Below are positions 1-62,777 of a DNA stretch of 64,000 nt, piece after piece. The DNA comes from Escherichia phage IME08. The notes under the pieces are model-generated. The model made no database searches and was not told where the DNA came from. It worked only from the letters and a program-made list of their open reading frames with translations. The stretch's first letter is position 1. The number at the start of each line of letters is the position of its first letter. Made by a program: the position numbers and the translations under genes. Where the stretch lies: sequence record NC_014260.1; one strand, 5' to 3'.

Positions 1-243
1 AACTTAAATTTCGGCAACGTAAGTGTTATGCAATTCCCACATATCATTGGAATTACTCTCAACGATAGGAATTATCTCATTAGAAATTTCTTCTGCATAA
101 GGGTCATTGATACAGTGAGCATCTTCAAAACGAACACCGTAATCAGACTTCTTATAAGCAAAGCCATAAATCTTTTTAAACTTGGCACGAGTAATGCGTA
201 CCGGTTCATTAGACTTATCGGACATCGGAGCGTAATACCACAT
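1..243 (-). CDS. hypothetical early protein, 3' end beyond window start
   Basis: ATG at 243 preceded by leader ...caaacatgaggagaacat; reading frame still open at position 1. Confidence 0.45.
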
Positions 244-270
244 ATGTTCTCCTCATGTTTGTGTAGGGTA

Positions 271-300
271 ATAGTAACACGTATTTTTAGAGTTGTACAT
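271..300 (-). promoter_or_regulatory. early-type promoter-like element, weak -35
   Basis: TACTATTA -10 as at 60625; leader about 90 percent identical to 60597..60660. Confidence 0.35.
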
Positions 301-616
301 CACTTCTGCAATATTCTAAAAATAATTTATCGTTGTCTACCGTATCCCAACGACGCCAAGATGGATTCCAGACCAGAGCGTTGTCACCACAATCATTGAG
401 CTTAAAATGGTCGTAGTACATAGCTATACGTCTAGTTTCGTCACCAGAGAACCCCAGTATAGGCTCGCCATGGGTGTGATACATATGATGGTGCATTGAG
501 AGGTCGCATTTGTAAAACATCTCACGTTTACCACGAACGAACAAGAAGGCTTGCCCATTCATATAGAATTCTTTATCTGTTTTCAAAAGATATTTGAATA
601 CTGAATCTTTATGCAT
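287..616 (-). CDS. hypothetical His-rich protein (HHHMYHTHGEP)
   Basis: ORF track 287..637; internal ATG at 616 has SD aggagga. Confidence 0.45.
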   Translation of the reverse strand: MHKDSVFKYLLKTDKEFYMNGQAFLFVRGKREMFYKCDLSMHHHMYHTHGEPILGFSGDETRRIAMYYDHFKLNDCGDNALVWNPSWRRWDTVDNDKLFLEYCRSDVQL

Positions 617-646
617 AAGTCCTCCTACCACATCCATGTGGTTAAA

Positions 647-874
647 TTATTTTCCTAACGAAACACGAGTAGGTTTTTTACCAAAATAGTCTTCGTAAGA
701 ACCATCTAAACGGCCTGCTTTAGACCGACAATACGAATCATACTTTTTGTAATAAGTCATCTCGGTATTATAACGTGGGTGTCTATCAGCCATAATAATA
801 CTTAGTGGCCAACCTTTGGCATAATCGCGAAGACCGTTTATTTTACGAATGTATCGTTTTTTCAATTTTAGCAT
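647..874 (-). CDS. hypothetical basic protein
   Basis: ORF track; ATG overlaps the Ser-Cys-stop codons of the upstream gene. Confidence 0.45.
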   Translation of the reverse strand: MLKLKKRYIRKINGLRDYAKGWPLSIIMADRHPRYNTEMTYYKKYDSYCRSKAGRLDGSYEDYFGKKPTRVSLGK

Positions 875-1092
875 GAGCTTGGGTACCAGATTTTACCATC
901 GGATCGAGCAACGAAGGTGCGACCAGCTTCTTCACCATAACAAGAGCTATTCAGCCAATCTTCGAGACGAACTTCACCGTCATAATCATCGAGCTCAACA
1001 CCAAAATCCTGAGCAGAAGCCATATCTTTTACTTTCTTATACAGTGCAGCCAGTTCAAGTGCCGCTTTTTCTAATTCATTAATATCAGTCAT
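868..1092 (-). CDS. small acidic protein, C-terminal WYPSSC; paralog family member
   Basis: ORF track 868..1221; start moved to internal ATG at 1092; shares C-terminal tail with 4 neighbours. Confidence 0.5.
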   Translation of the reverse strand: MTDINELEKAALELAALYKKVKDMASAQDFGVELDDYDGEVRLEDWLNSSCYGEEAGRTFVARSDGKIWYPSSC

Positions 1093-1102
1093 TTTTATCA
1101 CC

Positions 1103-1312
1103 TTAGCAAGACATAGAGGAGCTAAACCAGAAACCTTCACCTTCAGGAATACCGTAGTCATCACGGACCCATTCGTAATCATCATATTCCGGACTAGAAG
1201 CTGGAATATATTCTTCGCCACCAGCGTGGAAGTGCTGACCTGTTTCGTCAGCCACAGACTGGCCTTTACGTACTAATTCACGGATTTGTTTTTCAATTTC
1301 ATCAATAGTCAT
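1103..1312 (-). CDS. small acidic protein, C-terminal WFSSSMSC; paralog family member
   Basis: ORF track; conserved C-terminal tail; stop codon sits in SD of next gene. Confidence 0.55.
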   Translation of the reverse strand: MTIDEIEKQIRELVRKGQSVADETGQHFHAGGEEYIPASSPEYDDYEWVRDDYGIPEGEGFWFSSSMSC

Positions 1313-1321
1313 TTTATTTCC

Positions 1322-1519
1322 TTAGCATTCGTAAGAGGAGGACACCCAAGAGGTACCACTAATAGTAATACAACCGTTATAAAGCGTGATATGTCGTTCT
1401 AGGTCACGAACACCATCGATATAGATATCGGCTTCTTCGCGTTCTTCTTTACAAATCTGGATAACGTTTTCAATAGCTGCGGCTGCAGTACGGATTGCAC
1501 AATCTAATTCACGAGACAT
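1322..1519 (-). CDS. small acidic protein, C-terminal WVSSSYEC; paralog family member
   Basis: ORF track; conserved C-terminal tail. Confidence 0.55.
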   Translation of the reverse strand: MSRELDCAIRTAAAAIENVIQICKEEREEADIYIDGVRDLERHITLYNGCITISGTSWVSSSYEC

Positions 1520-1528
1520 AATAATTCC

Positions 1529-1810
1529 TTAACATTCAGAAGAAGAGGACACCCAACCACCATTTTCCAGGTCAGTTGTATAGTCATGAGTATTAACAAT
1601 AGCCCATTCAGGATGACCATCTTCTTCCCAGTGGGCCAGGTCAGCTTTCAGGGCGCCAGGAGAATAATAGTCACCGCCCATACCGCGAGCAGGGTATATA
1701 TTAAAATGAGTCTCATATTTGTCTGCAATTTCCTCAGCACGACGAATAGCTTCATGGATTTCTTTTACTGCGGCCAGAAGCTCCGGGTTGTTATGGTTAT
1801 CATTCATCAT
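1529..1810 (-). CDS. small acidic protein, C-terminal WVSSSSEC; paralog family member
   Basis: ORF track; conserved C-terminal tail; IADKY motif shared with 1820..2110. Confidence 0.55.
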   Translation of the reverse strand: MMNDNHNNPELLAAVKEIHEAIRRAEEIADKYETHFNIYPARGMGGDYYSPGALKADLAHWEEDGHPEWAIVNTHDYTTDLENGGWVSSSSEC

Positions 1811-1819
1811 AGCGTTTCC

Positions 1820-2110
1820 TTAGCACATTGCTGAAGAGGAGACCCAAGCACCAACTGTAACGACGCCGTTTTCAACTTCACCGCCGTTGTTTTCAATTTC
1901 ATCTTTAAACCACTGGGAGCATTCATAACCGACAGGATAATATGTACGGCCTGAACCATAATCACCGGTACCGAATTGGATACCATACTTATCGGCAATA
2001 GCTTCACATTCATGTTCGATGGTATTCACTTTATTCAGAAGAGCATAGATAGCCTTTTCTGCAGATTTCTCATCGTTGTGTTCTGGGATTTCGATTTCAA
2101 TTTTATTCAT
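1820..2110 (-). CDS. small acidic protein, C-terminal WVSSSAMC; paralog family member
   Basis: ORF track; C-terminal codons checked on DNA. Confidence 0.55.
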   Translation of the reverse strand: MNKIEIEIPEHNDEKSAEKAIYALLNKVNTIEHECEAIADKYGIQFGTGDYGSGRTYYPVGYECSQWFKDEIENNGGEVENGVVTVGAWVSSSAMC

Positions 2111-2460
2111 GATTTACATTCCTTAATAAAGATTTCAAGGTCATTACGTTTAGTTTGTTTTACATGCTCATTATAATTAGCCATCTCTAAAGCATATCTC
2201 TTACGGATGGGAGCATTCAAAGCGTTTGTATGGCAAATATCATACACAACAGGGATAAAATAAGCCACGACAGCCGGAGCGATTATCATATAAAAACCCA
2301 TCTCAATAGGCGTGACTCCTTCGATTGCCGCCATAACCGTGGTCATTACCAGACCAACCAAACCTCCTAGCATACCGGTGACAATTCCCATAAATAAGGA
2401 AATAGCAATATCATATTCAGCCAATTGATAAACATGTGATGAAAGACTAGGCCGTTCCAT
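2107..2460 (-). CDS. small membrane protein, 2 predicted TM helices
   Basis: ORF track 2107..2634; internal ATG at 2460 with SD aagagg; hydrophobic stretches GIVTGMLGGLVGLVMTTVMAAI and FYMIIAPAVVAYFIPVV. Confidence 0.5.
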   Translation of the reverse strand: MERPSLSSHVYQLAEYDIAISLFMGIVTGMLGGLVGLVMTTVMAAIEGVTPIEMGFYMIIAPAVVAYFIPVVYDICHTNALNAPIRKRYALEMANYNEHVKQTKRNDLEIFIKECKS

Positions 2461-2989
2461 TTTGAACCTCTTTAGCGTATTCGCGACATTCAGCAATAAA
2501 ACGATTAAGCTTCCGTTGTTGTTTTCGAATCTCTGATGTATACTCATTAGCCAAAATAATAAGCTCATCTTTATCGTAATTTTTAATATCCGAATAACTC
2601 GGGCGGCGGTCGACCATACCAAAGTGGTCACCATTTTCTAACATCAAATAGCATACTAAATGGTAATCATCGTCAGCATCAACAAGCTGTTTACAATCAC
2701 TTGGTTCATTTAAAGCGTATACTGAATAGCATAATCCAGCGAATTCCACTCGTTGAATACCCAGATTTACGTCAATAATTTCTAAAGCTTCTGCAAAAGA
2801 AAGGTCTTCAGCTAAAGCGAAGATAAAGGGCAATTTGGTAGTGTGTCCATGGCTACTTGTTCGACTTAAGAAATCATTGGAATAACCTAGGTCTTGGCGA
2901 ATTCTATAAAGAACTGCATTAGTTTCATGGGAAAGACCGCTATGTTTAAACCAATCAATATTTGATATCAGGTCATCATATAAACTCAT
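2447..2989 (-). CDS. hypothetical early protein
   Basis: ORF track; ATG at 2989 preceded by SD ggaggagag. Confidence 0.5.
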   Translation of the reverse strand: MSLYDDLISNIDWFKHSGLSHETNAVLYRIRQDLGYSNDFLSRTSSHGHTTKLPFIFALAEDLSFAEALEIIDVNLGIQRVEFAGLCYSVYALNEPSDCKQLVDADDDYHLVCYLMLENGDHFGMVDRRPSYSDIKNYDKDELIILANEYTSEIRKQQRKLNRFIAECREYAKEVQNGTA

Positions 2990-3012
2990 AATATTCTCCT
3001 CTCCTCCAAATA

Positions 3013-3030
3013 GGGAGACCGAAGTCTCCC
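3013..3030 (-). terminator. stem-loop GGGAGAC-UUCG-GUCUCCC
   Basis: Perfect 7-bp stem after 3038..3631; same hairpin at 40558. Confidence 0.5.
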
Positions 3031-3037
3031 GGTAACA

Positions 3038-3631
3038 TTACTTAAGTGAATTAATGTAGTCGTCGATATCAGCAGAAGTCGTATCCATTCCAACCTGTGG
3101 GCCTTTAAACGTTTCTACACGCAGCAGGGTATCTTCAATATCAATCTTAGTCAGTGCAGCGATTTCAACAACATCATCGGCAGTAGCAATACCAAGGGCA
3201 GCCATATTACGAGTTTCACGGATGTACTCGAGCTTAACAGCCAGTTCCTGACGAGAGTCATCAAGTTCCTTGACCTTCAGTTTAATTTCATTACGCATTT
3301 CGATATAATCATCGGCTTTCTTACGAAGCTGAGTAGCCGTACGACGATAAAGGAGGCCGAGTTTAGCATGTACCTGGACATCAGCGCCTTCGGCAATCAG
3401 TTTACGAATTTCACGTTCTTTAGAAGCAGCAAGCTGGTCTTTTTCATTAGCCAACGCACGAATACGTTTTTCTTCATTCACAGACTTAACATGAGCAGTC
3501 TGGAGTTCAGTGATTTTATCAATCAGGGTAGAAGCAGCTTTAGTATACTGGTCTTCGATTGACAGGTTCTGAGCCATTGCAGTACCCAGTTTAGAACGGA
3601 TGAATTCAACGATTTTCTTTAAAGTGTTCAT
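3038..3631 (-). CDS. coiled-coil protein
   Basis: ORF track; heptad-rich K/E/R sequence; GTTTAC-N18-TATAAT promoter upstream. Confidence 0.5.
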
Positions 3632-3673
3632 AGTATTTCCTTCAGTTGGTTAAGATTTATAATCCATGAGGAC

Positions 3674-3703
3674 ATTATACCCTGTCCTCTGAGGGATGTA
3701 AAC
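3674..3703 (-). promoter_or_regulatory. early-type promoter GTTTAC-N18-TATAAT
   Basis: Read on minus strand upstream of 3038..3631. Confidence 0.6.
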
Positions 3704-3706
3704 ATT

Positions 3707-4105
3707 TTATTTCATTTTTGCGAGGCAGATTTCATTGGCTTCCCATTGAGCTTGCTTAATAATAGCTTTGGATACAGGAGCCCTTTGGCCATAAGTTTTT
3801 GACGTTGAGAGAACAATATATTTGTTTGTCTCATTATGCCAGCCCCATGATTTTTCGCCATGGGTACCTTTAACTACAGCTGACACCTCAACAGAGCAAC
3901 CACCATCAGAAATCTTGGTTTCGACAATCCATTCATTTCTTTCGGCGGCTTCAAGTTCTAATCTAGTTTTTTCTTCATACATGGCAGCCCAATCAGTTTT
4001 TGCCAAGTTGAAAGTGAGAGCTTTCTCTAATTCTTTGGCAGCTTTTTGTTGTTCAGGCGTTAATGAATTGTACAACTCTTGCATTTCTTTATCTTCGATA
4101 TTCAT
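3707..4105 (-). CDS. hypothetical early protein
   Basis: ORF track; early-type promoter upstream. Confidence 0.5.
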   Translation of the reverse strand: MNIEDKEMQELYNSLTPEQQKAAKELEKALTFNLAKTDWAAMYEEKTRLELEAAERNEWIVETKISDGGCSVEVSAVVKGTHGEKSWGWHNETNKYIVLSTSKTYGQRAPVSKAIIKQAQWEANEICLAKMK

Positions 4106-4130
4106 TATGTTCTCCTCAAATTATGGGCTC

Positions 4131-4160
4131 ATAATATCTTAATCATGAGCCCATGTAAAC
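4131..4160 (-). promoter_or_regulatory. early-type promoter GTTTAC-N18-TATTAT within palindrome atgggctcat/atgagcccat
   Basis: Upstream of 3707..4105. Confidence 0.5.
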
Positions 4161-4162
4161 AA

Positions 4163-4426
4163 TTATTTCATATTATTGAAATACTCTTCCGCATCAAAAT
4201 CGTTATCATGATAAACTTTGGTAGACAATTTAACATAACCTTCGGCGGCAAACATATTAACCACAACCTTTACAGTATACCACTGTCCGTCATCATTACC
4301 CATTACTGCGTAAGTTTCAAATATAGGATGGTCATCACCTATAACCTTAATATCGTTAACAGTAGCACCAAATTCTTCAGGAACGCATTTCATAAAGAAA
4401 TTAAACAATTCACCATAATTATCCAT
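4163..4426 (-). CDS. hypothetical early protein
   Basis: ORF track start 4441 is GTG; ATG at 4426 has SD aaggagag. Confidence 0.5.
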   Translation of the reverse strand: MDNYGELFNFFMKCVPEEFGATVNDIKVIGDDHPIFETYAVMGNDDGQWYTVKVVVNMFAAEGYVKLSTKVYHDNDFDAEEYFNNMK

Positions 4427-4461
4427 TTTACTCTCCTTCACTCTGTTGTTTTGATAGGTCT

Positions 4462-4490
4462 ATAGTATCATGTTTAAAGGAGGTGTAAAC
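4462..4490 (-). promoter_or_regulatory. early-type promoter GTTTAC-N17-TACTAT
   Basis: Upstream of 4163..4426. Confidence 0.5.
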
Positions 4491-4524
4491 AACTTTGTGA
4501 AATTATTTTTAGTCTAAACCCCCA

Positions 4525-4546
4525 AAAGGAGACCGAAGTCTCCTTT
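4525..4546 (-). terminator. rho-independent terminator (GGAGAC-UUCG-GUCUCC + U run)
   Basis: Directly after IPIII-like stop. Confidence 0.65.
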
Positions 4547-4548
4547 CA

Positions 4549-5166
4549 TTATTTACGGGTCTTTTCGAACTGGGCCGCGTCACCAGCCAGACGACGAGCT
4601 TGACGAAGTTTGTTGTCGATTTCTTCGCGCATAGGCTGGGTATACTTAAGGCCTTCAACCGTCAGATAGAGGCGATAAAGGTCTGGGGTGTCTAGGTTGT
4701 TAATGTGCTGTCCGTTACGAAGAGTATTGAATTCACGAACAAGGTGTTTAGTTTCGGATTCGATTTCAGAAACCAAAGAAGCCAGTTGATTATATTTTTT
4801 AACTATAGTGCTGGTGTCAAACTTGATTTTAGGTTTAGGAGCTTCTTTTACCGGTTCGGCTTTAGGCGTCGGTTTCGGCGCTGCAACTTTGGCCTGGGCT
4901 GCAGGTTTAGCAACAGGAGCTTTAGCTGGTTTAGCAGGCTTAGTAGCGCCGCCAGCTACGATATCTTTAAAAGCTTTAGAAGCTTTGTAATATTCTTTCT
5001 GGTTACTAGTATCAAAACCATACATATCATAAACGTTTTTAAAGAATTCGGTGGTGGTTTTAGTCCCAGAAATTTTATCATAAGCCGCTTGCCACATATC
5101 TTTAGTCATGCGGACGCCGGCTTCGGTCAGAACGCTTTCGTTCAAAAATTCATTGTAAGTTTTCAT
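4549..5166 (-). CDS. internal head protein, IPIII-like, with capsid targeting sequence [10 protein letters not shown]
   Basis: N-terminus matches T4 CTS MKTYQEFIAE; basic Ala/Lys/Pro-rich core; minus-strand TATAAATA upstream. Confidence 0.7.
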   Translation of the reverse strand: MKTYNEFLNESVLTEAGVRMTKDMWQAAYDKISGTKTTTEFFKNVYDMYGFDTSNQKEYYKASKAFKDIVAGGATKPAKPAKAPVAKPAAQAKVAAPKPTPKAEPVKEAPKPKIKFDTSTIVKKYNQLASLVSEIESETKHLVREFNTLRNGQHINNLDTPDLYRLYLTVEGLKYTQPMREEIDNKLRQARRLAGDAAQFEKTRK

Positions 5167-5194
5167 TATTGTTTCCTGTGTTAATTAACTTATC

Positions 5195-5202
5195 TATTTA
5201 TA
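5195..5202 (-). promoter_or_regulatory. late promoter TATAAATA
   Basis: Exact octamer about 29 nt upstream of IPIII-like start. Confidence 0.6.
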
Positions 5203-5203
5203 C

Positions 5204-5234
5204 AAAAAAGGCCCAACCTTTCGGAAGGGCCTTT
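5204..5234 (-). terminator. rho-independent terminator after tRNA cluster
   Basis: ggccc...gggcc stem flanked by A6 and T3; same 25-nt sequence at 51611. Confidence 0.7.
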
Positions 5235-5400
5235 AACCTAGGGTAACCTTGTCGGGGTTCCACCTGCTAGGCAAGTGTTCGGTGCGCCGTTTCGGCTGTG
5301 AGATAAGGGACTTTAAGAGGAACTCATGTACGCCTTAAAGTCGGGTCTTATTCAGGGAACTTCAGTCCGACGACTTACCGGTAGCGACCCGGTTTCTTGT
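5232..5400 (-). ncRNA. candidate structured stable RNA next to tRNA cluster
   Basis: No ORF; nested stems (cgggtc...gacccg; ccgg...ccgg); sits between tRNAs and the strong terminator, where T4 has small stable RNAs. Confidence 0.3.
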
Positions 5401-5401
5401 T

Positions 5402-5477
5402 TGGCCGAGACAGTAGGGATCGAACCTACGACCCAGGACTTAGAAGGTCCTTGCTCTTCCTTCTGAGCTATGCCTCG
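5402..5477 (-). tRNA. tRNA-Arg (anticodon UCU)
   Basis: Hand-folded cloverleaf: 7-bp acceptor, 4-bp D stem, 5-bp anticodon stem, loop CTTCTAA, T loop TTCGATC, encoded CCA. Confidence 0.8.
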
Positions 5478-5481
5478 TATT

Positions 5482-5556
5482 TGGCGGACATGCATGGATT
5501 CGAACCATGGACCAATTGATTAACAGTCAACTGCTCTACCACTGAGCTACACATCC
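5482..5556 (-). tRNA. tRNA-Asn (anticodon GUU)
   Basis: Hand-folded cloverleaf: acceptor GGATGTG/CATGTCC, loop CTGTTAA, T loop TTCGAAT, encoded CCA. Confidence 0.8.
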
Positions 5557-5560
5557 AAAT

Positions 5561-5634
5561 TGGTGGCCCTGGGTGGAATCGAACCACCATCCAGCGATTA
5601 TGAGTCGCTCGCTTGACCGTCCAGCTACAGGGCC
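5561..5634 (-). tRNA. tRNA-Met (anticodon CAU; could be Ile2 if lysidinylated)
   Basis: Hand-folded cloverleaf: acceptor GGCCCTG/CAGGGCC, anticodon loop CTCATAA, T loop TTCGATT, encoded CCA. Confidence 0.75.
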
Positions 5635-5719
5635 TTAATTCTATTATGAAAGGCTCTTTGAGGGAAGAACCTTTGGTAATAGAGGGTATTAATGATAGAG
5701 TAATAATATCACATAATTC

Positions 5720-6004
5720 TTAAAGCATATTAATGTAATCAAGTTTAATAGAAGCAATCTTCAAAGGATTTTTAAAGATGTCGTATTCGACCAATCCATT
5801 TTCAGTTGCGGTATAAAAAGTAAAGTTAACAGAATTATAACGATGGCTGTTAACTTTGAGCTTAACATCGCTTGAACTACGTCCTATATTAACCTGTTGA
5901 ACATCAAGAACAGCATCTTTGCCATAATTGCGAATCAACAACTCAGCTGCAACCTGATCGGATTTATAGCCATTCTCTGGATTAGTAACCTTAACGTATA
6001 GCAT
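5720..6004 (-). CDS. hypothetical early protein
   Basis: ORF track. Confidence 0.5.
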   Translation of the reverse strand: MLYVKVTNPENGYKSDQVAAELLIRNYGKDAVLDVQQVNIGRSSSDVKLKVNSHRYNSVNFTFYTATENGLVEYDIFKNPLKIASIKLDYINML

Positions 6005-6406
6005 TTAACCCTCGTCTACAATTGTGTGGGTATTGGCATTAACAATCTGCCACCAGTCAAAACGATTAGAACCGTAACAAGGCTTATTCTCGTTATCTTT
6101 AATGATATTACGTAGTTCATCTTCAGTAGCAGCTTTTGCGATTAAGTCAGTGTATCCACCACGTGGATAATAGTTGTCACCGGCGAACAAAAGGAAATTT
6201 ACCTTTCCAGAAGGAATATATGCTTCCTTAGGATACTTGTTTCCTGCATGGTCTACCACTTCAATATAACGATAAGGGATATCAGTACTTTCAACCCATT
6301 GCCAAGCTGCAGCAGGAGAGTCAAAAGCATCAACACCTAAACGGTTATCTTCATCTTTAGACGGGTTATTTTCATAATCCGCATATACATAATATTCAAC
6401 GTTCAT
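6005..6406 (-). CDS. hypothetical early protein
   Basis: ORF track; directly follows upstream gene. Confidence 0.5.
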   Translation of the reverse strand: MNVEYYVYADYENNPSKDEDNRLGVDAFDSPAAAWQWVESTDIPYRYIEVVDHAGNKYPKEAYIPSGKVNFLLFAGDNYYPRGGYTDLIAKAATEDELRNIIKDNENKPCYGSNRFDWWQIVNANTHTIVDEG

Positions 6407-6591
6407 TATTCACCTTTAGAGATTTTATCCATTACGAAAGAGATTGAACCAATTAAAAATGCCACTACTAAAGAGATTATATTCTCGGAAGTTGAAAGCA
6501 TATCGAGCATGAATCCTGCAAACATACTAAAGCCAAAAGCAGTAACGGCTGCCAGTGCAGTAACATTTCTAATTAATTCACAACGTTTCAT
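6406..6591 (-). CDS. small membrane protein, 2 predicted TM helices
   Basis: ORF track start 6603 is TTG; ATG at 6591 with SD ggag; hydrophobic segments. Confidence 0.5.
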   Translation of the reverse strand: MKRCELIRNVTALAAVTAFGFSMFAGFMLDMLSTSENIISLVVAFLIGSISFVMDKISKGE

Positions 6592-6627
6592 TTTATTCTC
6601 CAATCACTCATTTGTTTTGATAGGGCT

Positions 6628-6657
6628 ATAGTACCATCACTAGAGCCCGTTGTAAAC
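6628..6657 (-). promoter_or_regulatory. early-type promoter GTTTAC-N18-TACTAT with palindrome
   Basis: Upstream of 6406..6591. Confidence 0.5.
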
Positions 6658-6659
6658 AA

Positions 6660-6932
6660 TTATTTTAAATAAATTGCATACTTTTTATAACCAGCCGTTT
6701 CGTGACGCAGCCCTTTTTCATTAGCAAAACGTTCAATATTGTTAATTTGATTCTGGTCGAGTTCTGAAGTATCAAATACAAAAAAGTTTCGCTTATTGCC
6801 TAAAGTTACATGATTAGTCAAATCGATGTTATAGAGATGATTTATATTATCAATCATAGTCTTAACAGATTTGTTAATTTTTACTTCTTCATTAAGAATA
6901 GATTCAGCGATAAATTCTTGATATGTTTTCAT
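6660..6932 (-). CDS. internal protein candidate with CTS MKTYQEFIAE
   Basis: N-terminal 10 aa identical to T4 internal-protein CTS; position matches T4 ipI locus next to 57B. Confidence 0.65.
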   Translation of the reverse strand: MKTYQEFIAESILNEEVKINKSVKTMIDNINHLYNIDLTNHVTLGNKRNFFVFDTSELDQNQINNIERFANEKGLRHETAGYKKYAIYLK

Positions 6933-6934
6933 TT

Positions 6935-7159
6935 TTATTCAGCGCCAGCGGCTTTCAAAAGTTTTTTAAGATTAGCGGTGCCTTGAGCAGAAAATGTGAC
7001 CTTGCCGTCTTTTTCGCCGATGCTCCCGGTCAATTTAGCGAGCTTATCACTAGGGACTTTTTTAAAATCAGCCAATGAACCGTCAAAGGTTTTTGTAACA
7101 ACCGGCAGTTGGTCTTCGTGTTTTTTAGCTTCGGTAATAAATTCTTGATAAGTTTTCAT
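6935..7159 (-). CDS. internal protein candidate with CTS MKTYQEFITE
   Basis: CTS-like N-terminus; early-type promoter upstream. Confidence 0.65.
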   Translation of the reverse strand: MKTYQEFITEAKKHEDQLPVVTKTFDGSLADFKKVPSDKLAKLTGSIGEKDGKVTFSAQGTANLKKLLKAAGAE

Positions 7160-7196
7160 TTTGATTTCCGTTTGGTTAGTTTGTTTTGATAGGTCT

Positions 7197-7225
7197 ATAG
7201 TATCATGCCTATAGACCTTGTAAAC
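7197..7225 (-). promoter_or_regulatory. early-type promoter GTTTAC-N17-TACTAT with 9-bp palindrome ggtctatag/ctatagacc
   Basis: Upstream of 6935..7159. Confidence 0.5.
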
Positions 7226-7237
7226 ACCTTTTTTAAA

Positions 7238-8121
<884 letters not shown>

Positions 8122-8129
<8 letters not shown>

Positions 8130-8883
8130 TTTTATTTCCTAATAATTTATCAATAGTAGTGTATAGTTCAGAAAGAGTGCCGTTATTTTCAACAACAACG
8201 TCACCAGGTAAAATTGGCAGACCCGCTTCAGTGATGTGCGAGTCTTGTACTTGACCGGTTTCAGAGCGAACTACATGAATAATCGTAGCACCCATCGCTC
8301 TGAGCGAATCAATTTCATGTGTTTGACGAACATCAGGTACGACATAGTATTTCGCATCAGAGTATATTTTATCAAAATAGTCTAAAGCGAACAACTTAAC
8401 CCAATACATCTTATCAAATTGGTTAACAATAATATCAGTCCCAAGGGTCTGCATGAGACGACGTACTGACCAATTGTTATTTTTATTTATTACTTCAAAC
8501 AGTTGGTCTTTTGTTTCTTCAGACAGATACTGGACTGGGGTAAGACCATAATGATATGCGGTACGAACATCAATTCCTGGAATAGGAAGGATATTATTCA
8601 GTTTGACAATAGCATTTTCAAAGATATCAATAACATCATATGGTTTTAAAGGAATGATTTCTTCACGGTCGTAACCGATACCTTCAAAACAGTTAAAATC
8701 GAGTTTAGGCATATAACTACGGTCGAATACAGGGTCATCAGAGATGTATTCATAGGCTTCAGCCAGATACTTTTTAATAGGACCCGCGAGCTGAAATTTT
8801 ACCGAATCCATATTTTCGATTACATAGTTAGCAACGGTATCCTTACCGCTACGTTTGATTCCTACAATTGATATTAGTTTCAT
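8122..8883 (-). CDS. 1: gp1 deoxynucleoside monophosphate kinase
   Basis: P-loop KRSGKDT; VRRLMQ.LGTD, MYWVKLFALDY and ATIIHVVR motifs match T4 gp1. Confidence 0.9.
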
Positions 8884-9473
8884 TATTTTCTCATAGATGG
8901 ATGCATAGACATACGAGCCACACGTTGTTCAGCGTACGAATCAATTTGTGGACGACCTGTAACTATTGTACCATCTATTTCTACAGCAAACGATTTGAAG
9001 TTGAATGTTGCGGTAGCGATTATCGCAGGGTCAGAATCTTCTTTATATGAATACTGGATTTCCGAGAGGTCGGATGGCCAACCACCGTAGTAATGAATGC
9101 TCATTACGATTTTCTGTTTGTTATTATCAAGAATATGGAGCGTAATTGCTTCAGGTAAGCCTTTAGGATGCCAAGCTTCGGATTCATGGGTTACGTAGTT
9201 GTTTAATGACAACATCCACTTATAAACGTCAAGCCATGATTTCAATTCACGGTCTACAAGAAAGTTCACGATCAATGGGTCGAATTCTACAGTAGAACCT
9301 GGCAGCTTAGCACGATGTATGCCCTGGGTCGATCCTGGGACGTCTGAGATCGGAATATGGATACCAGGTAGTGTTACATCTTGTACGTTCAATTTGAATG
9401 ACTGTGTCATTCCTGAGTCACTAACCTCTAAGATAAAGTTGGTGGTGTTAGTTTGGTTAAATAAACCGTTCAT
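8883..9473 (-). CDS. 3: gp3 tail completion / sheath stabiliser (start uncertain, 9473 or 9410)
   Basis: Position between 1 and 2; ORF track 8883..9635 overlaps gp2; ATG at 9473 has SD agga; ATG at 9410 gives T4-like 175 aa. Confidence 0.6.
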   Translation of the reverse strand: MNGLFNQTNTTNFILEVSDSGMTQSFKLNVQDVTLPGIHIPISDVPGSTQGIHRAKLPGSTVEFDPLIVNFLVDRELKSWLDVYKWMLSLNNYVTHESEAWHPKGLPEAITLHILDNNKQKIVMSIHYYGGWPSDLSEIQYSYKEDSDPAIIATATFNFKSFAVEIDGTIVTGRPQIDSYAEQRVARMSMHPSMRK

Positions 9474-9555
9474 AAGGTTCCTATATTGCTTAAGTCCCAG
9501 ACAGTGTATAATGGTCCTAGGTCTGTTCCATTCAATAACTGGCTGGGATAATAGA

Positions 9556-10383: not shown

Positions 10384-10829
10384 CCTTTCCATCCTAATTT
10401 TTTCAGTGAATGTTCGGTAATCAATCTAAAGGTGATACCCATTTTATCTGCTGTAGCTTTAGCTGCTTTCCACTTATCGGTATTAACAGACCAAGTATAG
10501 TGTTCGTTGATATATCTCTTTTTAGCAGCCGTAGTCATTTTAACAGGCGCCGCAGGAGCATGGGTTTCTTTAAAAGGTTTGACTTCAAAAAAGAATTGTT
10601 GACCTGTATCAAATTTAACCCAGAAGTCCATAAAATATCGTCTTTTCTTTCCTTCGGCATTGCAAAAGTATGGAATCACCACCTCTTCTGAATTCCACTG
10701 GACTACATTAGGATGGTTGTCAAGCCAACGCATAAACCATGCTTCCCAAGAGGAACGATATTGGATTTTCTTCCAGTCACCTTTATATTTTTGTAAGTTT
10801 GTAGGTTTAAATTTCCCTGAGTAAGCCAT
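10380..10829 (-). CDS. 4: gp4 head completion protein
   Basis: 149 aa vs T4 150 aa; position; minus-strand TATAAATA upstream. Confidence 0.75.
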
Positions 10830-10840
10830 AGTCGCCTCCT

Positions 10841-41527: not shown

Positions 41528-41556
41528 TTTTAATCTCCTCATGTTTTGATAGGTCT

Positions 41557-41586
41557 ATAGTAACATGTGATAACCTTGCTGTAAAC
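41557..41586 (-). promoter_or_regulatory. early-type promoter GTTTAC-N18-TACTAT
   Basis: Upstream of 41261..41527. Confidence 0.5.
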
Positions 41587-41592
41587 AACTTT

Positions 41593-41600
41593 TATAAATA
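41593..41600 (+). promoter_or_regulatory. late promoter TATAAATA (gene 24)
   Basis: Exact octamer. Confidence 0.6.
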
Positions 41601-41628
41601 AACATATACCCTCAATAAGGAAAGCGCA

Positions 41629-45602: not shown

Positions 45603-45608
45603 AACATA

Positions 45609-46963: not shown

Positions 46964-47031
46964 AACAATTCTCTTGTGATTTGACTATTCAATAATAACA
47001 TGAGAATTTTAACTTGTAAACAGGAGATTTT

Positions 47032-47106
47032 ATGCCAGACAATCCATTATACGGGCATGACGGTAGAGGTGTATCATTAGAACTCACTAGTGAAAGCACC
47101 TTTTAA
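47032..47106 (+). CDS. 24-aa upstream mini-ORF (MPDNPLYGHDGRG...)
   Basis: ATG with SD aggag; stop lies in SD of next gene; N-terminus resembles 44206 ORF. Confidence 0.4.
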   Translation: MPDNPLYGHDGRGVSLELTSESTF

Positions 47107-60596: not shown

Positions 60597-60624
60597 AATG
60601 TTCTCCTCATGTTTGTGTAAGGTA

Positions 60625-60654
60625 ATAGTACCACATCCATGTGGTGTTGTAAAC
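60625..60654 (-). promoter_or_regulatory. early-type promoter GTTTAC-N18-TACTAT
   Basis: Upstream of 60306..60596. Confidence 0.5.
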
Positions 60655-62777
60655 TACATTTTGAATTTATTTGGCAGAGCAGAGATATCCAAAGATGCAG
60701 CAAGGATTTCCATAGCCTCGTTGCTTTCAGAAACAGATTCACTAACCAAGAACTGTTTAAAGCCATCCATCGGACGAACTTCACCGGTTTCCATCAGATG
60801 GTCGCCGTCATAAACAGATTCACTGAGCTCTGAAGGAGACATCACAGTAGCTTCCATAAGATATTTGTGAGATACCCTATCATTCATAGCAAAAGCCGCT
60901 ACTTTATCAACCTTCATCAATAATCCGCGCGGAAGGATAATTTCTGCTTCTTCAGCGTATTCTGTAAGGTCACCAGGAGCGATAACTTTAACTGCTTCAG
61001 CACCTCGAATAACCATACCAATTTCAGCAATTCTATCCGCAGGGCCTTCAGGTGCAATTGGATTACCAAACTCGTCTTCTTCCCATTCTACCTCTTCATC
61101 GTCGACTTCACCTACATCAGATGAACTACCGCTAGCCAATTTAAACAACTCATCAGCGGAGGATAAAGAACCTTCACCACCAACAAAAACGGCTTGGTTG
61201 TCGAGGGCCATATAATTTTTACCGAATTCACCAAAGATGTTAGGCTTTAGTGAGGCGGACACAAAGTTCTTAAAGTAAAATGTTTTGTTATCGATATTAT
61301 GACGCAGAATTTTGTATGGCAAATCCTGACCACGATACAAAATAGTACCCTTAGGAAGTTTAATACCCTTAGTAAATGCCGAGTCTAAATCCTTAATCAA
61401 TCTAATAGCCGTTGTATTGTTTTCGGATTCAGGTTTACCTAAAAGGAATAAGTTCATAGGAGCATATTCAGCTGCGCAATATTCAATAATAGCATTGCTT
61501 TCGTCTTTGGTTAGGTCCTTAGGTTTAATGAGCTCGCCTGAATAAGCATATGCATCACCAATAGAATCGTTAATCAGTTTATAAACGGCTTCCATAGCGA
61601 AAGCAATTCGAGATGCCTTTTCTGAAGGGGAGCCATTAAAACGGGCACTCAGGTTATTAACAATTCTCTTAATAATATCCAGACTATTGGTAGTATTGAT
61701 TTGCGAAAGGCCGCTTAAAAGTCTATCGACTTCTGTATTAAAAAATGCCATATTTTTAGAGTAAATTTCAAACCCTTGTTTATCTCTATTAGCATAATTT
61801 AGTTTAAATTTACTATCAGTCATTAAAGCATGTGTGAGAGCAATAGTGTATCTAAAGTTAGCAAGGTCCTCGCTCTTAGATTTAAACTGAGAAGCCTGGC
61901 GCATTTTGGTAATAGCACCTTTTTTAAAGTTCTGACTAATCTGTTCAATACCTTCGTTCTCAGGGCCTTCGGCAGTGTGAACCGGTACAGAAGCTTCAAA
62001 CTCGTTATAAACCTGCAATTCTTTAGGGGACAAAGTTTCAGGCTCAGCAGTAGAATACTGCGCGGCAGCCGCCATACGACGGGAAATCTTAGTACGAGTA
62101 ATGACAGCCTTATCGGTACGTTTCTCTTCAACCTGTGCAATAGATGCCGCTACGGCTTCGACCTTACTTACGGCCTGGCCGGTTTTCTTAGAAACATACA
62201 CTTCGCCGACTTTAGAATCGACTTTGGTATAAAGGTCGGCATCAATTTCAGGCATGCCTTTGATATCTTCGATATTGGAACCACGACGTACTAAAAGAAC
62301 GTAGGTATGTTTTCCACTGAACTGGAACATGCTATCAACAACTTTAAACTTACCGCCAGTACGAGCCATCGCTAAACGTGCCAATACGCGCTGAACAGTA
62401 GGACCCTTACCTTTCATTTTCTTGGTAGGGAAACGGAATAAAACTGCATCCATTTTAAGTTTGTTTACTTGTTCGTATACAGTATCGAAAATGGTATTCA
62501 GTGTACCAAGTGGGTCAGAACCAAGGCCACCCTTAAGTTCAGCCGGAGCACCCTTGCTTGACAAACTCATTAGAATAACATGAATGTATTTGTCGCCTGG
62601 CTTAACCATTTTAATAGCGTCTCCTTGAGACGCATAAGATACCATACGAGCAACCAGGTTATCATTACCTGGTGCATGGATAGAGAAAATCTGTGGAATA
62701 CCGGAACCCGGTTTAAGATTTGTTACTGGATAGTTTTTAGCGGAATCACTATCAAAAACCTCGTTTAAATTTTCCAT
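60654..62777 (-). CDS. Alt-family ADP-ribosyltransferase paralog
   Basis: 707 aa; N-terminus resembles T4 Alt; C-terminal half has LYRGQ, FYFKNFVSASL, EIILPRGL, DGDHLMETGE blocks. Confidence 0.8.
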   Translation of the reverse strand: MENLNEVFDSDSAKNYPVTNLKPGSGIPQIFSIHAPGNDNLVARMVSYASQGDAIKMVKPGDKYIHVILMSLSSKGAPAELKGGLGSDPLGTLNTIFDTVYEQVNKLKMDAVLFRFPTKKMKGKGPTVQRVLARLAMARTGGKFKVVDSMFQFSGKHTYVLLVRRGSNIEDIKGMPEIDADLYTKVDSKVGEVYVSKKTGQAVSKVEAVAASIAQVEEKRTDKAVITRTKISRRMAAAAQYSTAEPETLSPKELQVYNEFEASVPVHTAEGPENEGIEQISQNFKKGAITKMRQASQFKSKSEDLANFRYTIALTHALMTDSKFKLNYANRDKQGFEIYSKNMAFFNTEVDRLLSGLSQINTTNSLDIIKRIVNNLSARFNGSPSEKASRIAFAMEAVYKLINDSIGDAYAYSGELIKPKDLTKDESNAIIEYCAAEYAPMNLFLLGKPESENNTTAIRLIKDLDSAFTKGIKLPKGTILYRGQDLPYKILRHNIDNKTFYFKNFVSASLKPNIFGEFGKNYMALDNQAVFVGGEGSLSSADELFKLASGSSSDVGEVDDEEVEWEEDEFGNPIAPEGPADRIAEIGMVIRGAEAVKVIAPGDLTEYAEEAEIILPRGLLMKVDKVAAFAMNDRVSHKYLMEATVMSPSELSESVYDGDHLMETGEVRPMDGFKQFLVSESVSESNEAMEILAASLDISALPNKFKM

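What the first reader, a model, noticed from the sequence alone, without database searches (positions are those of the whole stretch)
244..300. Repeated early-promoter/leader modules, with one near-identical pair 60 kb apart
At least seven minus-strand intergenic regions carry GTTTAC, a 17-18 nt spacer, then TACTAT or TATAAT, often inside a short palindrome (e.g. ggtctatag/ctatagacc at 7190..7215). The leaders at 244..300 and 60597..60660 are about 90 percent identical across roughly 55 nt (...tactattaccctacacaaacatgaggagaacatATG), implying a shared regulatory cassette or recombination-mediated gene shuffling.
Basis: seen in the sequence. Interest (0 to 1): 0.4.

Follow-up and report, generated by a model that had tools for sequence, protein, structure and literature searches.

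The report
T4-type early promoter cassettes (PeSL-like)
The repeated motifs are the strong host-polymerase "early" promoters, with attached leaders and ribosome-binding sites, of a JS98-like (T4-related) coliphage; this is a known kind of regulatory cassette, so the finding is correct but ordinary.

Summary
GTTTAC-N17/18-TAYWAT occurs 8 times in the window, all on the minus strand, against 0.14 expected. A ninth, degenerate copy is leader A at 244-300. Leaders A and B share 32 of 33 nt from the -10 box to the start codon, and 46 of 57 nt from the -35 box.

The window is a Dhakavirus (JS98-like, T4-related) genome segment. The motif equals the published T4/PST early-promoter consensus TTTACW-N17-TAYWAT. 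It comes with an A/T-rich upstream tract, a TGn extended -10, a conserved A/C-rich leader and a GAGGAG ribosome-binding site.

In the closest complete genome (IME341), all 31 strict matches lie on the early-gene strand. Each promoter's spacer is specifically complementary to its own -10/discriminator or Shine-Dalgarno region (permutation p<5e-5, with compensatory changes). Four of 18 synteny breakpoints against relatives fall within 30 nt upstream of a -35 box.

This matches the "promoter-early stem-loop" (PeSL) cassettes of Arbiol 2010 and Comeau 2014.

The A/B pair is not unique: P4490 and P7225 share a longer exact run. It is also not recent, since both copies sit at orthologous sites in every Dhakavirus genome where the exact leader pattern was found.

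Verdict: a new member of a known kind, of low to moderate interest. Transcription starts remain unmapped.

The parts
244..300 (-). Leader A cassette. It has a degenerate -35 box ATGTAC (300-295), an 18-nt spacer that contains the stop codon of the upstream ORF (289-287), a TGt-extended -10 TACTAT (276-271), the leader TACCCTACACAAACATGAGGAGAACAT (270-244), and then the ATG at 243 of a 79-aa ORF (4-243, phrog_3723).
60597..60654 (-). Leader B cassette. The -35 box GTTTAC (60654-60649) overlaps the TAG stop codon of the alt-like gene. The spacer holds a weak hairpin, ACCACAtggaTGTGGT. It is followed by a TGg-extended -10 TACTAT (60630-60625), the leader TACCTTACACAAACATGAGGAGAACATT, and the ATG at 60596 of a 96-aa ORF (60306-60596, phrog_1739; annotated Alt.-3 in IME341).
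7160..7250 (-). Cassette P7225. It has an A/T-rich tract, a -35 box at 7225-7220, a -10 TACTAT at 7202-7197, and the inverted repeat GGTCTATAG/CTATAGACC at 7217-7192. The leader is AGACCTATCAAAACAA.... The ATG at 7159 starts an internal-virion-protein gene.
   Evidence: z=-6.1; AnYang synteny breakpoint at 7246
6592..6685 (-). Cassette P6657. The -35 box is at 6657-6652 and the -10 TACTAT at 6633-6628. The inverted repeat is GGGCTcTAG/CTAtAGCCC. The SD region GGAGAATAAAA matches the RegB/S1 consensus at 11 of 11 positions. The ATG is at 6591.
   Evidence: z=-3.2; JS98 synteny breakpoint at 6666
4427..4546 (-). Cassette P4490. A terminator-like hairpin lies upstream at 4525-4546. The -35 box is at 4490-4485 and the -10 TACTAT at 4467-4462. 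The spacer sequence CTCCTT is complementary to the cassette's own SD, AAGGAG. The ATG is at 4426.
   Evidence: SD unpaired 0.32 in read-through RNA vs 0.86 in own transcript; IME341 synteny breakpoint at 4502
4106..4188 (-). Cassette P4160. The -35 box is at 4160-4155 and the -10 TATTAT at 4136-4131. The inverted repeat is ATGGGCTCAT/ATGAGCCCAT. The ATG is at 4105.
   Evidence: -20.1 kcal/mol, z=-6.6
3632..3733 (-). Cassette P3703. The -35 box is at 3703-3698 and the -10 TATAAT at 3679-3674. The inverted repeat is GAGGACA/TGTCCTC. The ATG is at 3631 (e.6-like gene).
   Evidence: z=-1.8
41528..41616 (-). Cassette P41586, lying between the genes annotated gp23 and gp24 in the relative IME341. 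The -35 box is at 41586-41581 and the -10 TACTAT at 41562-41557. The leader is AGACCTATCAAAACATGAGGAGA. The ATG at 41527 starts an 88-aa ORF, which is followed by a homing-endonuclease gene.
46964..47051 (-). Cassette P47021. The -35 box is at 47021-47016 and the -10 TATTAT at 46997-46992. The spacer sequence AATTCTCaTG is complementary to CAaGAGAATT in the SD region. The ATG is at 46963.
   Evidence: SD unpaired 0.24 in read-through RNA vs 0.53 in own transcript; IME341 synteny breakpoint at 47029
627..642 (-). An isolated copy of leader B's spacer hairpin (ACCACATGGATGTGGT). It lies between a stop codon (649-647) and the SD/ATG (616) of the next ORF, preceded by AAAATAATTTAA, and has no -35 or -10 box. 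It may be a degraded ('half') cassette.

Best explanation
These are the sigma-70-dependent early promoters of a JS98-like (Dhakavirus) T4-related phage, packaged as compact promoter-leader cassettes.

Anatomy (shown). Each cassette has:
- an A/T-rich UP-like tract;
- a -35 box GTTTACA;
- a 16-17-bp spacer, counted from TTTACA;
- a TGn-extended -10 box TAYTAT;
- a conserved A/C-rich initial transcribed leader, either AGACCTATCAAAACA or TACCYTACACAAACA;
- a strong Shine-Dalgarno (GAGGAG) 6-8 nt before the ATG of a small accessory gene.

Function (inferred from T4). Host RNA polymerase fires these promoters immediately after infection.

Spacer inverted repeat. The spacer usually carries the 5' arm of an inverted repeat. 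Its 3' arm is the cassette's own -10/discriminator, or in a subset its own Shine-Dalgarno. Complementarity and covariation are shown.

Consequence (inferred). Because the 5' arm lies upstream of the transcription start, the hairpin can form only in read-through RNA from upstream genes. There it would attenuate or insulate. In P4490 and P47021 it would mask the ribosome-binding site, so the gene is translated mainly from its own promoter's transcript.

Recombination. The 20-45-nt near-identical stretches shared between cassettes are portable homology for the phage recombination system. The association of gene gain, loss and replacement between relatives with cassette edges is shown; the mechanism is inferred from the PeSL work on RB49/phi1.

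Leaders A and B. They are two old members of one leader subtype, kept nearly identical by selection on promoter, 5'UTR and ribosome-binding-site function. They are not the product of a recent duplication.
For: Identity of the window:
- It is 93-99.7% identical to Dhakavirus genomes JS98, IME341, IME281 and AnYang.

Motif and promoter features:
- 8 motif matches, all on the minus strand, against 0.14 expected; a ninth member is found by profile search.
- The consensus equals the published T4/PST PeSL promoter TTTACW-N17-TAYWAT (PMC4122927).
- TGn is present in 7/9 window cassettes and 38/44 IME341 promoters; upstream A+T is 0.76 against 0.60 for the window. This matches the 'UP/-35/TGn/-10' description of T4 early promoters (PMC2988021).
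- In IME341, 31/31 strict matches and 30/30 profile hits are on the early-gene strand.

Spacer complementarity:
- Own spacer against own downstream region gives a longest complement of 6.07 nt against 4.52 nt for cross pairs, and a duplex energy of -11.1 against -7.4 kcal/mol. Zero of 20,000 permutations reach either value.
- Covariation: GGGYT occurs in the spacer of 13/14 promoters with AGCCC and 0/20 with AGACC.
- Paralogous cassettes show compensatory differences, GGAGC/GCTCC against GGACC/GGTCC.
- Local hairpin z-scores are -6.6, -6.1 and -3.2.
- The SD is masked only in read-through RNA for P4490 and P47021.

Breakpoints:
- Breakpoints at 4502, 6666, 7246 and 47029 lie 8-21 nt upstream of -35 boxes. 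That is 4 of 18; binomial P=8e-5 for early-strand regions.

Leaders A and B:
- Both copies were seen at the two orthologous sites in six complete Dhakavirus genomes; five IMG/VR genomes hold exactly two exact matches.
- The same leader sits upstream of alc in another Dhakavirus, and upstream of other genes in other phage contigs.

Precedent:
- PeSL precedents include stem-loops between or overlapping the -35 and -10 boxes, and crossovers mapped between the -10 box and the ATG (PMC2839356).
Against: - No transcription-start or expression data exist for this phage, so promoter activity rests on consensus and context only.
- Leader A has a degenerate -35 box (ATGTAC), and its spacer overlaps the end of the upstream ORF. 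It may be weak, or depend on the extended -10 alone.
- The class I hairpins are not followed by a U-tract, and the terminator scan did not call them. Classical intrinsic termination is therefore unlikely.
- SD masking is not a general property: across 44 promoters, own spacers do not lower SD accessibility relative to foreign spacers (Wilcoxon p=0.10, trend in the opposite direction).
- Leaders A and B themselves lack significant hairpins.
- Breakpoints could cluster at cassettes simply because intergenic junctions are the only places where indels are tolerated.
- The covariation counts include orthologous, non-independent sequences.
Confidence: 0.85

Rival explanations
1. The cassettes are early promoters, but their similarity (including A and B) reflects only convergent or purifying selection for a strong promoter, an unstructured leader and a strong ribosome-binding site. 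They would have no special role in recombination, and breakpoints fall there because only intergenic junctions tolerate indels.
For: - Leaders A and B are conserved at fixed orthologous sites, with a fixed C/T difference across genomes. There is no clear concerted evolution.
- The invariant segments coincide with functional elements: TGn, the -10 box, the SD, and a RegB-like GGAGAAYA.
- The same 17-mer leader also occurs behind TTGACA-type promoters in unrelated metagenomic phage contigs, which could be convergence.
Against: - Four independent breakpoints fall 8-21 nt upstream of -35 boxes. This is the AT-rich zone where PeSL crossovers were proposed or mapped in RB49/phi1, not gene ends in general (PMC2839356).
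- One Dhakavirus carries the A/B-type leader on its alc gene, while IME341 has a different leader there. This suggests leader exchange.
- The A copy in locus L039 has two B-like states (gtggtac, aacattATG), which hints at conversion.
Confidence: 0.3
2. The inverted repeats act at the DNA level. They would be cruciform or hairpin structures that modulate promoter melting, or targets for structure-specific nucleases (for example endonuclease VII) that initiate recombination. They would not act in read-through RNA.
For: - The arms are perfect palindromes centred on or next to the -10 box.
- The sequences vary but complementarity is kept, which fits any nucleic-acid structure, DNA or RNA.
- Arbiol et al. 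speculated that the PeSL stem-loop could be a target for a recombination protein.
Against: - In the class II repeats the arms are 25-30 nt apart and the 3' arm is the Shine-Dalgarno. This makes functional sense for RNA, not for a cruciform.
- Stems of 6-10 bp with 6-30-nt loops extrude poorly as cruciforms (general knowledge).
- No direct evidence is available either way.
Confidence: 0.1
3. The palindromes are operators for a dimeric phage or host regulator that shuts off early promoters.
For: Palindromes that overlap the -10 box are the classic position for repressor operators (general knowledge).
Against: - Arm sequence, length and register differ between cassettes while complementarity is preserved. 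Examples are GGTCTATAG, GGGCTCAT, GAGGAC, GGTACAGG, TAGGGTA and ATCTCCATTAG.
- The covariation between GGGCT and AGCCC is the signature of base pairing, not of a shared protein-binding sequence.
Confidence: 0.03
4. The motif matches are chance or compositional artefacts of an A/T-rich genome, or they belong to another promoter class (MotA-dependent middle or gp55 late).
For: A generic sigma-70 scan of 1-12000 finds no more sites than shuffles do (38 against 34), so loose promoter matching is uninformative in this genome.
Against: - 8 matches against 0.14 expected, all on one strand, and 31 against 0 by strand genome-wide.
- Profile E-values are 1e-9 to 1e-15.
- None of the nine spacers contains a TGCTT MotA box, and no -10 box is TATAAATA (sequences).
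Confidence: 0.01

Closest known systems
PeSLs (promoter-early stem-loop cassettes) of T4-like phages: RB49/phi1 (Arbiol et al. 2010, PMC2839356); PST/T4 and nt-1/KVP40 (Comeau et al. 2014, PMC4122927)
   Same: - The architecture is the same: an AT-rich tract, a sigma-70-type -35 and -10, a stem-loop, an SD and an ATG.
- The promoter consensus is identical to the PST/T4 type (TTTACW-N17-TAYWAT).
[quoted passage not shown]
- The cassettes concentrate in hyperplastic regions and lie next to indels and replacements between close relatives.
   Different: - The stems are not polyG/polyC as in RB49. They are built from the conserved -10/discriminator (CTATAGMCC), and in a subset from the cassette's own Shine-Dalgarno 25-30 nt downstream. 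I did not find this arrangement among the five PeSL subclasses described in the passages I read.
- In PST the stem-loops are described as lying just upstream of the promoter.
- No U-tract follows the stems here.
- Terminator activity and mini-circles are untested here.
- For JS98-type phages, the 2010 paper mentions only 'PeSL-like sequences' at the g43 locus.
Bacteriophage T4 early promoters ('UP/-35/TGn/-10' promoters; Hinton 2010, PMC2988021)
   Same: - The -35 GTTTAC-type box, the TGn extended -10, the TAnnnT -10 and the A/T-rich UP region are all present.
- The promoters sit upstream of prereplicative genes on the early strand.
- An alt-like gene is present in the window (60654-62777).
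   Different: - This is a different genus (Dhakavirus, about 40% G+C).
- The initial transcribed region is strongly conserved (AGACCTATCAAMWAA).
- The spacers are systematically complementary to downstream elements.
- No mapped starts or Alt-stimulation data exist for this phage.
Conserved promoter/leader elements flanking the T-even internal-protein (IP) loci (Repoila et al. 1994, as discussed in PMC2839356 and PMC4122927)
   Same: - P6657 and P7225 flank internal-protein genes.
- JS98 differs from the window exactly between 6666 (the upstream edge of P6657) and 7137, which is 22 nt into the conserved N-terminal MKTYQEFI targeting sequence after P7225.
   Different: Here the same cassette family is genome-wide (about 44 copies in IME341). 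It is not confined to IP loci.
T4 translational hairpins with an internal promoter (genes e, soc, 49, I-TevI; Uzan & Miller 2010, PMC3014915)
   Same: In P4490 and P47021, and in about 6 of 44 IME341 cassettes, the strand that pairs with the SD lies upstream of the internal promoter's start. Only read-through transcripts are predicted to sequester the ribosome-binding site.
   Different: - In T4 the internal promoters are late promoters and the control delays translation until late. Here the internal promoter is an early one, so the effect would be insulation from upstream early transcription.
- This rests on prediction only, and it is not a general property of the cassettes.
RegB/S1 cleavage sites in T4 early mRNAs (GGAGRAYARAA; Durand et al. 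2006, PMC1702504)
   Same: - The SD regions of the leaders resemble the 11-nt target. P6657 (GGAGAATAAAA) matches at 11/11; P4160, P4490 and P41586 at 10/11; A and B at 9/11.
- They are intergenic and predicted to be mostly unpaired.
- The relative IME341 encodes an 'endoribonuclease' next to vs.1, the regB position.
   Different: The matches were counted by eye from the sequences. Cleavage is untested, and regB lies outside the window.

Membership tests
T4-type early (sigma-70) promoters | -35 GTTTAC(A)/TTTACW box, about 17 bp from a -10 TAYWAT box | tested here: met
   8 exact matches against 0.14 expected. Leader A has ATGTAC, a 4/6 match. The published consensus is in PMC4122927.
T4-type early (sigma-70) promoters | [quoted passage not shown] | tested here: met
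   TGn in 7/9 window cassettes and 38/44 IME341 promoters. A+T in the 30 nt upstream is 0.76 against 0.60 for the window. The feature is described in PMC2988021.
T4-type early (sigma-70) promoters | Located upstream of, and co-oriented with, prereplicative genes; absent from late-gene blocks | tested here: met
   All 9 are on the minus strand, 25-42 nt upstream of an ATG, and none lies in 10.8-40.5 kb. In IME341, 31/31 are on the early strand.
T4-type early (sigma-70) promoters | Primary transcripts initiated immediately after infection by unmodified host RNA polymerase | not testable with these tools
   No transcriptome or 5'-end data were available for this phage.
PeSL cassettes | Stem-loop adjacent to or overlapping the early promoter | tested here: met
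   Local hairpins are significant in 3 of 9 (z=-6.6, -6.1, -3.2) and marginal in 1. Genome-wide complementarity of own spacer to own downstream region gives p<5e-5. Covariation is shown. Not met for leader A, and weak for leader B.
PeSL cassettes | Preferential location in hyperplastic regions and next to indels or replacements between close relatives | tested here: met
   Six of 9 cassettes lie in the e-tRNA-ip region; the others sit next to a homing-endonuclease insert, the rnlB/hoc region and alt. Four of 18 breakpoints lie within 30 nt upstream of a -35 box, P=8e-5.
PeSL cassettes | Stem-loop acts as a transcription terminator or attenuator | tested here: inconclusive
   No U-tract follows the class I stems, and the terminator scan does not call them. 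The only terminator-like hairpin at a cassette is the one upstream of P4490, at 4525-4546. Activity needs reporter assays.
PeSL cassettes | Recombination between cassettes produces mini-circles or deletions | not testable with these tools
   This needs inverse PCR on infected cells or virions (PMC2839356).
T4 MotA-dependent middle promoters | MotA box (a/t)(a/t)(a/t)TGCTTtA centred at -30 in place of a -35 box | tested here: not met
   None of the nine spacers contains TGCTT, and a GTTTAC -35 box is present instead (sequences; consensus from PMC2988021).
T4 late promoters | TATAAATA at -10, with no -35 box | tested here: not met
   The -10 boxes are TACTAT, TATTAT or TATAAT, followed by g, t or a. 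None reads TATAAATA.
Promoter-within-hairpin translational control (T4 e/soc/49/I-TevI type) | SD/AUG paired with a strand that lies upstream of the internal promoter's start site | tested here: inconclusive
   Predicted for P4490 (SD unpaired 0.32 in read-through RNA vs 0.86 in own transcript) and P47021 (0.24 vs 0.53), and for about 6 of 44 IME341 cassettes. It is not general and is absent in A and B.
Rfam RNA families | Match to a curated covariance model | tested here: not met
   Only three tRNAs (5405-5634) reach the gathering score in the window.

The most novel reading that the evidence does not exclude
In Dhakavirus early promoters the 17-bp spacer, which RNA polymerase reads only for length, has been recruited as an 'anti-sequence' to the cassette's own downstream element. 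RNA made from the cassette's own promoter and RNA reading through from upstream would then be structurally different molecules. In one class the hairpin closes over the -10/discriminator. In another the spacer is an anti-Shine-Dalgarno, so the gene is translated only from its own early transcript. This would be an early-promoter version of the T4 e/soc/I-TevI logic, and a built-in insulator that would make each promoter-gene cassette portable.
Probability: 0.3. Interest if true: 0.5.

Novelty: new member of a known kind. Interest (0 to 1): 0.27.

Why it matters
The finding gives a clean, genome-wide picture of early promoter cassettes in the JS98/Dhakavirus group. There are about 44 copies per genome, and the cassettes had been mentioned only in passing for this group.

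It adds independent comparative support for the PeSL idea that conserved regulatory cassettes are the joints at which T4-like phages swap accessory genes.

In practical terms, the consensus (A/T tract, GTTTACA, N16-17, TGnTAYTAT, AGACCTATCAA...GAGGAG) can be used to annotate early transcription units and strong portable promoters in therapeutic coliphages.

The specific complementarity of each spacer to its own downstream element is a testable hint that each cassette insulates itself from upstream transcription.

None of this overturns current understanding.

Tried and rejected
- Generic sigma-70 and terminator scan of 1-12000. Promoter-like sites (38 against 34.1 expected) and terminator-like sites (11 against 8.6) are not above shuffles, so the scan is uninformative. 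It also does not call the class I hairpins as terminators.
- SD masking as a general function of the spacer repeats. Rejected. Across 44 IME341 promoters, SD accessibility in read-through RNA is no lower with the own spacer (0.52) than with foreign spacers (0.49; Wilcoxon p=0.10). Only a subset shows the effect.
- Leader B's spacer hairpin, and any hairpin in leader A. Neither is significant against shuffles (z=-0.7 and -1.3).
- A recent duplication or ongoing homogenisation of A and B. Rejected. Both copies sit at orthologous sites, with a fixed C/T difference across genomes.
- Homology between the genes downstream of A and B. None: they fall in different PHROG families of unknown function, and the alignment loses identity at the ATG.
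- Rfam. No family matches other than three tRNAs.
- MotA-box and late-promoter readings. Rejected by inspection of the sequences. The TGCTTTA seen in some relatives' spacers lies only 7 nt from the -10 box, which is the wrong spacing for a MotA box.
- The exact source genome was not found. The best match is IME341, at 97.8-99.7% with several indels.
- The original JS98 genome paper (Zuber et al. 2007) did not come up in the searchable library. I could not check whether it lists these promoters.
Full report
**What the window is**

The first 8 kb, the 40-62 kb stretch and the last 4 kb are 93-99.7% identical to coliphages of the genus Dhakavirus (Straboviridae, Tevenvirinae). These include JS98, IME341, IME281 and AnYang.

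In the JS98 and IME341 annotation, 1-8000 is the e.x/tRNA/internal-protein hyperplastic region. The region at 60.3-64 kb is the alt region just past gp54. The minus strand of the window is the prereplicative (early) strand. The 10.8-40.5 kb block holds late structural genes on the plus strand.

**Checking the observation**

- GTTTAC-N17/18-TAYWAT matches 8 times, all on the minus strand. Shuffles give 0.14 +/- 0.35.
- The -35 boxes start at 3703, 4160, 4490, 6657, 7225, 41586, 47021 and 60654. Each lies 25-42 nt upstream of the ATG of a minus-strand ORF.
- A profile HMM built from these eight finds only one further significant match in 64 kb: leader A at 250-297 (E=4e-5). The next hit has E=0.13.
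- The 33-mer TACTATTACCYTACACAAACATGAGGAGAACAT occurs only at 244-276 and 60598-60630, with 0 expected.
- A/B identity is 32/33 from the -10 box to the ATG, 36/39 including the TGn, and 46/57 (81%) from the -35 box.
- Identity ends at the ATG. The downstream proteins belong to different PHROG families of unknown function.
- The repeat finder independently recovers family D5 (A, P41586, B) and family D4 (P4490, P6657, P7225, P41586).

Two corrections are needed. Leader A has ATGTAC rather than GTTTAC, and its spacer contains the stop codon of the upstream ORF. The A/B pair is not unique: P4490 and P7225 share a 27-nt exact run, longer than the 22-nt run shared by A and B.

**What it is**

The motif is the same as the published consensus of T4/PST early promoters inside PeSL cassettes, TTTACW-N17-TAYWAT (PMC4122927). 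The cassettes also carry the other hallmarks of T4 early promoters, described as 'UP/-35/TGn/-10' promoters (PMC2988021):

- TGn is present in 7 of 9 cassettes.
- A+T is 76% in the 30 nt upstream of the -35 box, against 60% for the window.

I assembled the complete genome of the closest relative, IME341. All 31 strict motif matches and all 30 profile hits lie on the early-gene strand, and none on the other. A curated set of 44 promoters gives this consensus:

`...AaAaAa.tGTTTACAt-(spacer)-acATGaTAcTATagaCCTATcAAataAa`

TGn is present in 38 of the 44. None of the nine window spacers has a MotA box, and none of the -10 boxes is the late TATAAATA (sequences). Rfam finds only three tRNAs in the window.

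**The inverted repeats**

In most cassettes the 5' arm of an inverted repeat lies in the promoter spacer. The 3' arm falls into one of three positions:

- Class I: the last bases of the -10 box plus the discriminator. Examples are GGTCTATAG/CTATAGACC, ATGGGCTCAT/ATGAGCCCAT and GAGGACA/TGTCCTC.
- Class II: the Shine-Dalgarno region 25-30 nt downstream. In IME341, ATCTCCATTAG pairs with CTAATGGAGAT, and TTCTCCTCATG with CATGAGGAGAA. In the window, CTCCTT pairs with AAGGAG in P4490, and AATTCTCaTG with CAaGAGAATT in P47021.
- Class III: inside the spacer itself, as in leader B (ACCACAtggaTGTGGT).

A permutation test on the 44 IME341 promoters shows that each spacer is specifically complementary to its own downstream region. 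The longest perfect complement averages 6.07 nt against 4.52 nt for cross pairs. The duplex energy averages -11.1 against -7.4 kcal/mol. None of 20,000 permutations reaches either value.

I also collected 34 distinct promoters from IMG/VR contigs with a pattern that leaves one discriminator base free. The spacer contains GGGYT in 13 of 14 promoters with AGCCC, and in 0 of 20 with AGACC (Fisher p=1.5e-8; the sequences are partly orthologous). Paralogous cassettes differ by compensatory pairs, GGAGC/GCTCC against GGACC/GGTCC.

This is the signature of a nucleic-acid structure rather than of a protein operator. Within the window, the local hairpins are significant for P4160, P7225 and P6657 and marginal for P3703. 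They are not significant for A, B, P4490, P41586 or P47021.

**How it most likely works**

Shown here:

- the anatomy of the cassettes;
- the strand and position bias;
- the complementarity and covariation of the spacers.

Inferred:

- By analogy with T4, E. coli sigma-70 RNA polymerase fires these promoters immediately after infection, and transcription starts about 7 nt after the -10 box.
- On that assumption the 5' arm is never part of the cassette's own transcript. The hairpins can form only in RNA that reads through from upstream.
- For P4490 and P47021, the predicted unpaired probability of the SD-to-AUG region drops from 0.86 to 0.32 and from 0.53 to 0.24 when the upstream sequence is included. 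This is the logic known for T4 genes e, soc, 49 and I-TevI, where a late promoter sits inside the inhibitory hairpin (PMC3014915).

SD masking is not general. Across the 44 promoters, own spacers do not lower SD accessibility relative to foreign spacers.

The class I stems lack a U-tract and are not called as terminators. Arbiol et al. showed terminator-like activity for an RB49/phi1-type PeSL stem-loop (PeSL211/210). Here I can only say 'attenuator/insulator, mechanism open'.

The SD parts of several leaders also resemble the RegB/S1 target GGAGRAYARAA (PMC1702504). P6657 matches 11/11, three others 10/11, and A and B 9/11 (counted by eye). IME341 encodes an endoribonuclease at the regB position. 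The leaders may therefore also programme early mRNA shut-off. This too is inferred.

**Recombination**

Comparing the window with JS98, IME341, IME281 and AnYang gives 18 synteny breakpoints. Four of them lie 8-21 nt upstream of a -35 box, in the A/T-rich tract: 4502, 6666, 7246 and 47029. The binomial P is 8e-5, taking only early-strand regions as the target.

JS98 replaces the internal-protein genes exactly between 6666 and 7137. The second point is 22 nt into the conserved MKTYQEFI N-terminus that follows P7225. This echoes the IP-locus shuffling of Repoila et al. 1994 as discussed in PMC2839356.

This supports the PeSL model. It cannot exclude that intergenic junctions are simply the only places where indels are tolerated.

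**The A/B pair**

- A scan of IMG/VR finds the exact leader twice in each of five complete Dhakavirus genomes and once in JS98.
- The copies are always at the same two orthologous sites. The A copy carries C (A in one genome) and the B copy carries T at the variable position.
- In locus L046 the sequence upstream of the B cassette has diverged strongly, while the cassette from GTTTAC to the ATG is unchanged.
- The pair is therefore old and under purifying selection, not a recent duplication.
- The A copy in L039 has two B-like states, which may hint at conversion.
- The same 17-mer leader is attached to alc in one Dhakavirus, to another gene in two other ~145-170-kb viral contigs, and to TTGACA-type promoters in four metagenomic phage contigs. 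Leader modules are thus either exchanged or convergent.

**Comparison with what is known, and verdict**

The finding is a correct sequence-only rediscovery of T4-type early promoters organised as PeSL-like cassettes. The class is described for RB49/phi1, PST/T4 and nt-1/KVP40. For JS98, only 'PeSL-like sequences' at the g43 locus were mentioned.

What differs here:

- the stems are built from the -10/discriminator, or from the cassette's own SD, rather than from polyG/polyC tracts;
- the initial transcribed region is strongly conserved;
- the complementarity between each spacer and its own downstream element has statistical support.

I rate it a new member of a known kind, with low to moderate interest. 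The main unknowns are the mapped transcription starts and the actual function of the hairpins.

Noticed in passing
window 627-642: A 16-nt hairpin, ACCACATGGATGTGGT (minus-strand reading), is identical to the spacer hairpin of leader B. It sits between a stop codon and the SD/ATG (616) of the next ORF and has no -35 or -10 box. It may be a degraded half-cassette. The mechanical ORF list starts this ORF at an ATG inside the hairpin (637), but the SD-backed start is at 616.
   Followed up: partly
window 5199-5238 and 51604-51643: A second long-range near-identical pair: a 40-nt G+C-rich hairpin, AAAAAAGGCCCAACCTTTCGGAAGGGCC, at 93% identity and 46 kb apart (family D15). It looks like a shared terminator module.
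   Followed up: no
window 5137-5176, 6903-6942, 7130-7169, 7418-7457: Four minus-strand genes share a conserved SD plus the N-terminal MKTYQEF... sequence, the internal-protein capsid-targeting sequence (families D7 and D10). The 69-aa gene at 7238-7447 is absent from phage AnYang.
   Followed up: partly
window 1302-1349, 1509-1556, 1800-1847: Three copies of a 48-nt module (67-100% identity) lie at successive gene junctions of small minus-strand ORFs at 1.1-2.1 kb (family D9). This suggests a tandem array of paralogous small genes.
   Followed up: no
window 44194-45621 (repeats at 44460-45121): A 1.4-kb segment absent from IME341 contains a long array with 9-nt periodicity (family D1, 16 copies in register). 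It may encode a repetitive, three-residue-period protein.
   Followed up: no
L056 (IMG/VR contig 2706795356), L057/L060, L058/L059/L061/L062: The A/B-type leader TACACAAACATGAGGAG(AACATTATG) is also found upstream of alc in another Dhakavirus, upstream of a different gene in two other ~145-170-kb viral contigs, and behind TTGACA-N17-TAATAT promoters in four metagenomic phage contigs.
   Followed up: partly
IME341 (NC_055742) 42218 and 42661; 36269 and 135449; 103207 and 112493: Outside the window, the relative has other near-identical cassette pairs. One is a tandem pair with an identical 41-nt leader, 443 bp apart. One pair 99 kb apart differs by a compensatory GGAGC/GCTCC to GGACC/GGTCC change. 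One pair, 9.3 kb apart, is identical from the -35 box into the leader (about 45 nt).
   Followed up: partly
window leaders, e.g. 6592-6602 (P6657), 4106-4116 (P4160): The Shine-Dalgarno regions match the T4 RegB/S1 cleavage consensus GGAGRAYARAA at 9-11 of 11 positions. The leaders may therefore also be RegB targets (consensus from PMC1702504; counted by eye).
   Followed up: partly
window 5405-5634: Three tRNA genes lie on the minus strand (Rfam); they are annotated as Arg, Asn and Met in JS98. The region around them (4503-5634) is replaced in IME341 by about 2.2 kb that includes an endonuclease gene.
   Followed up: no
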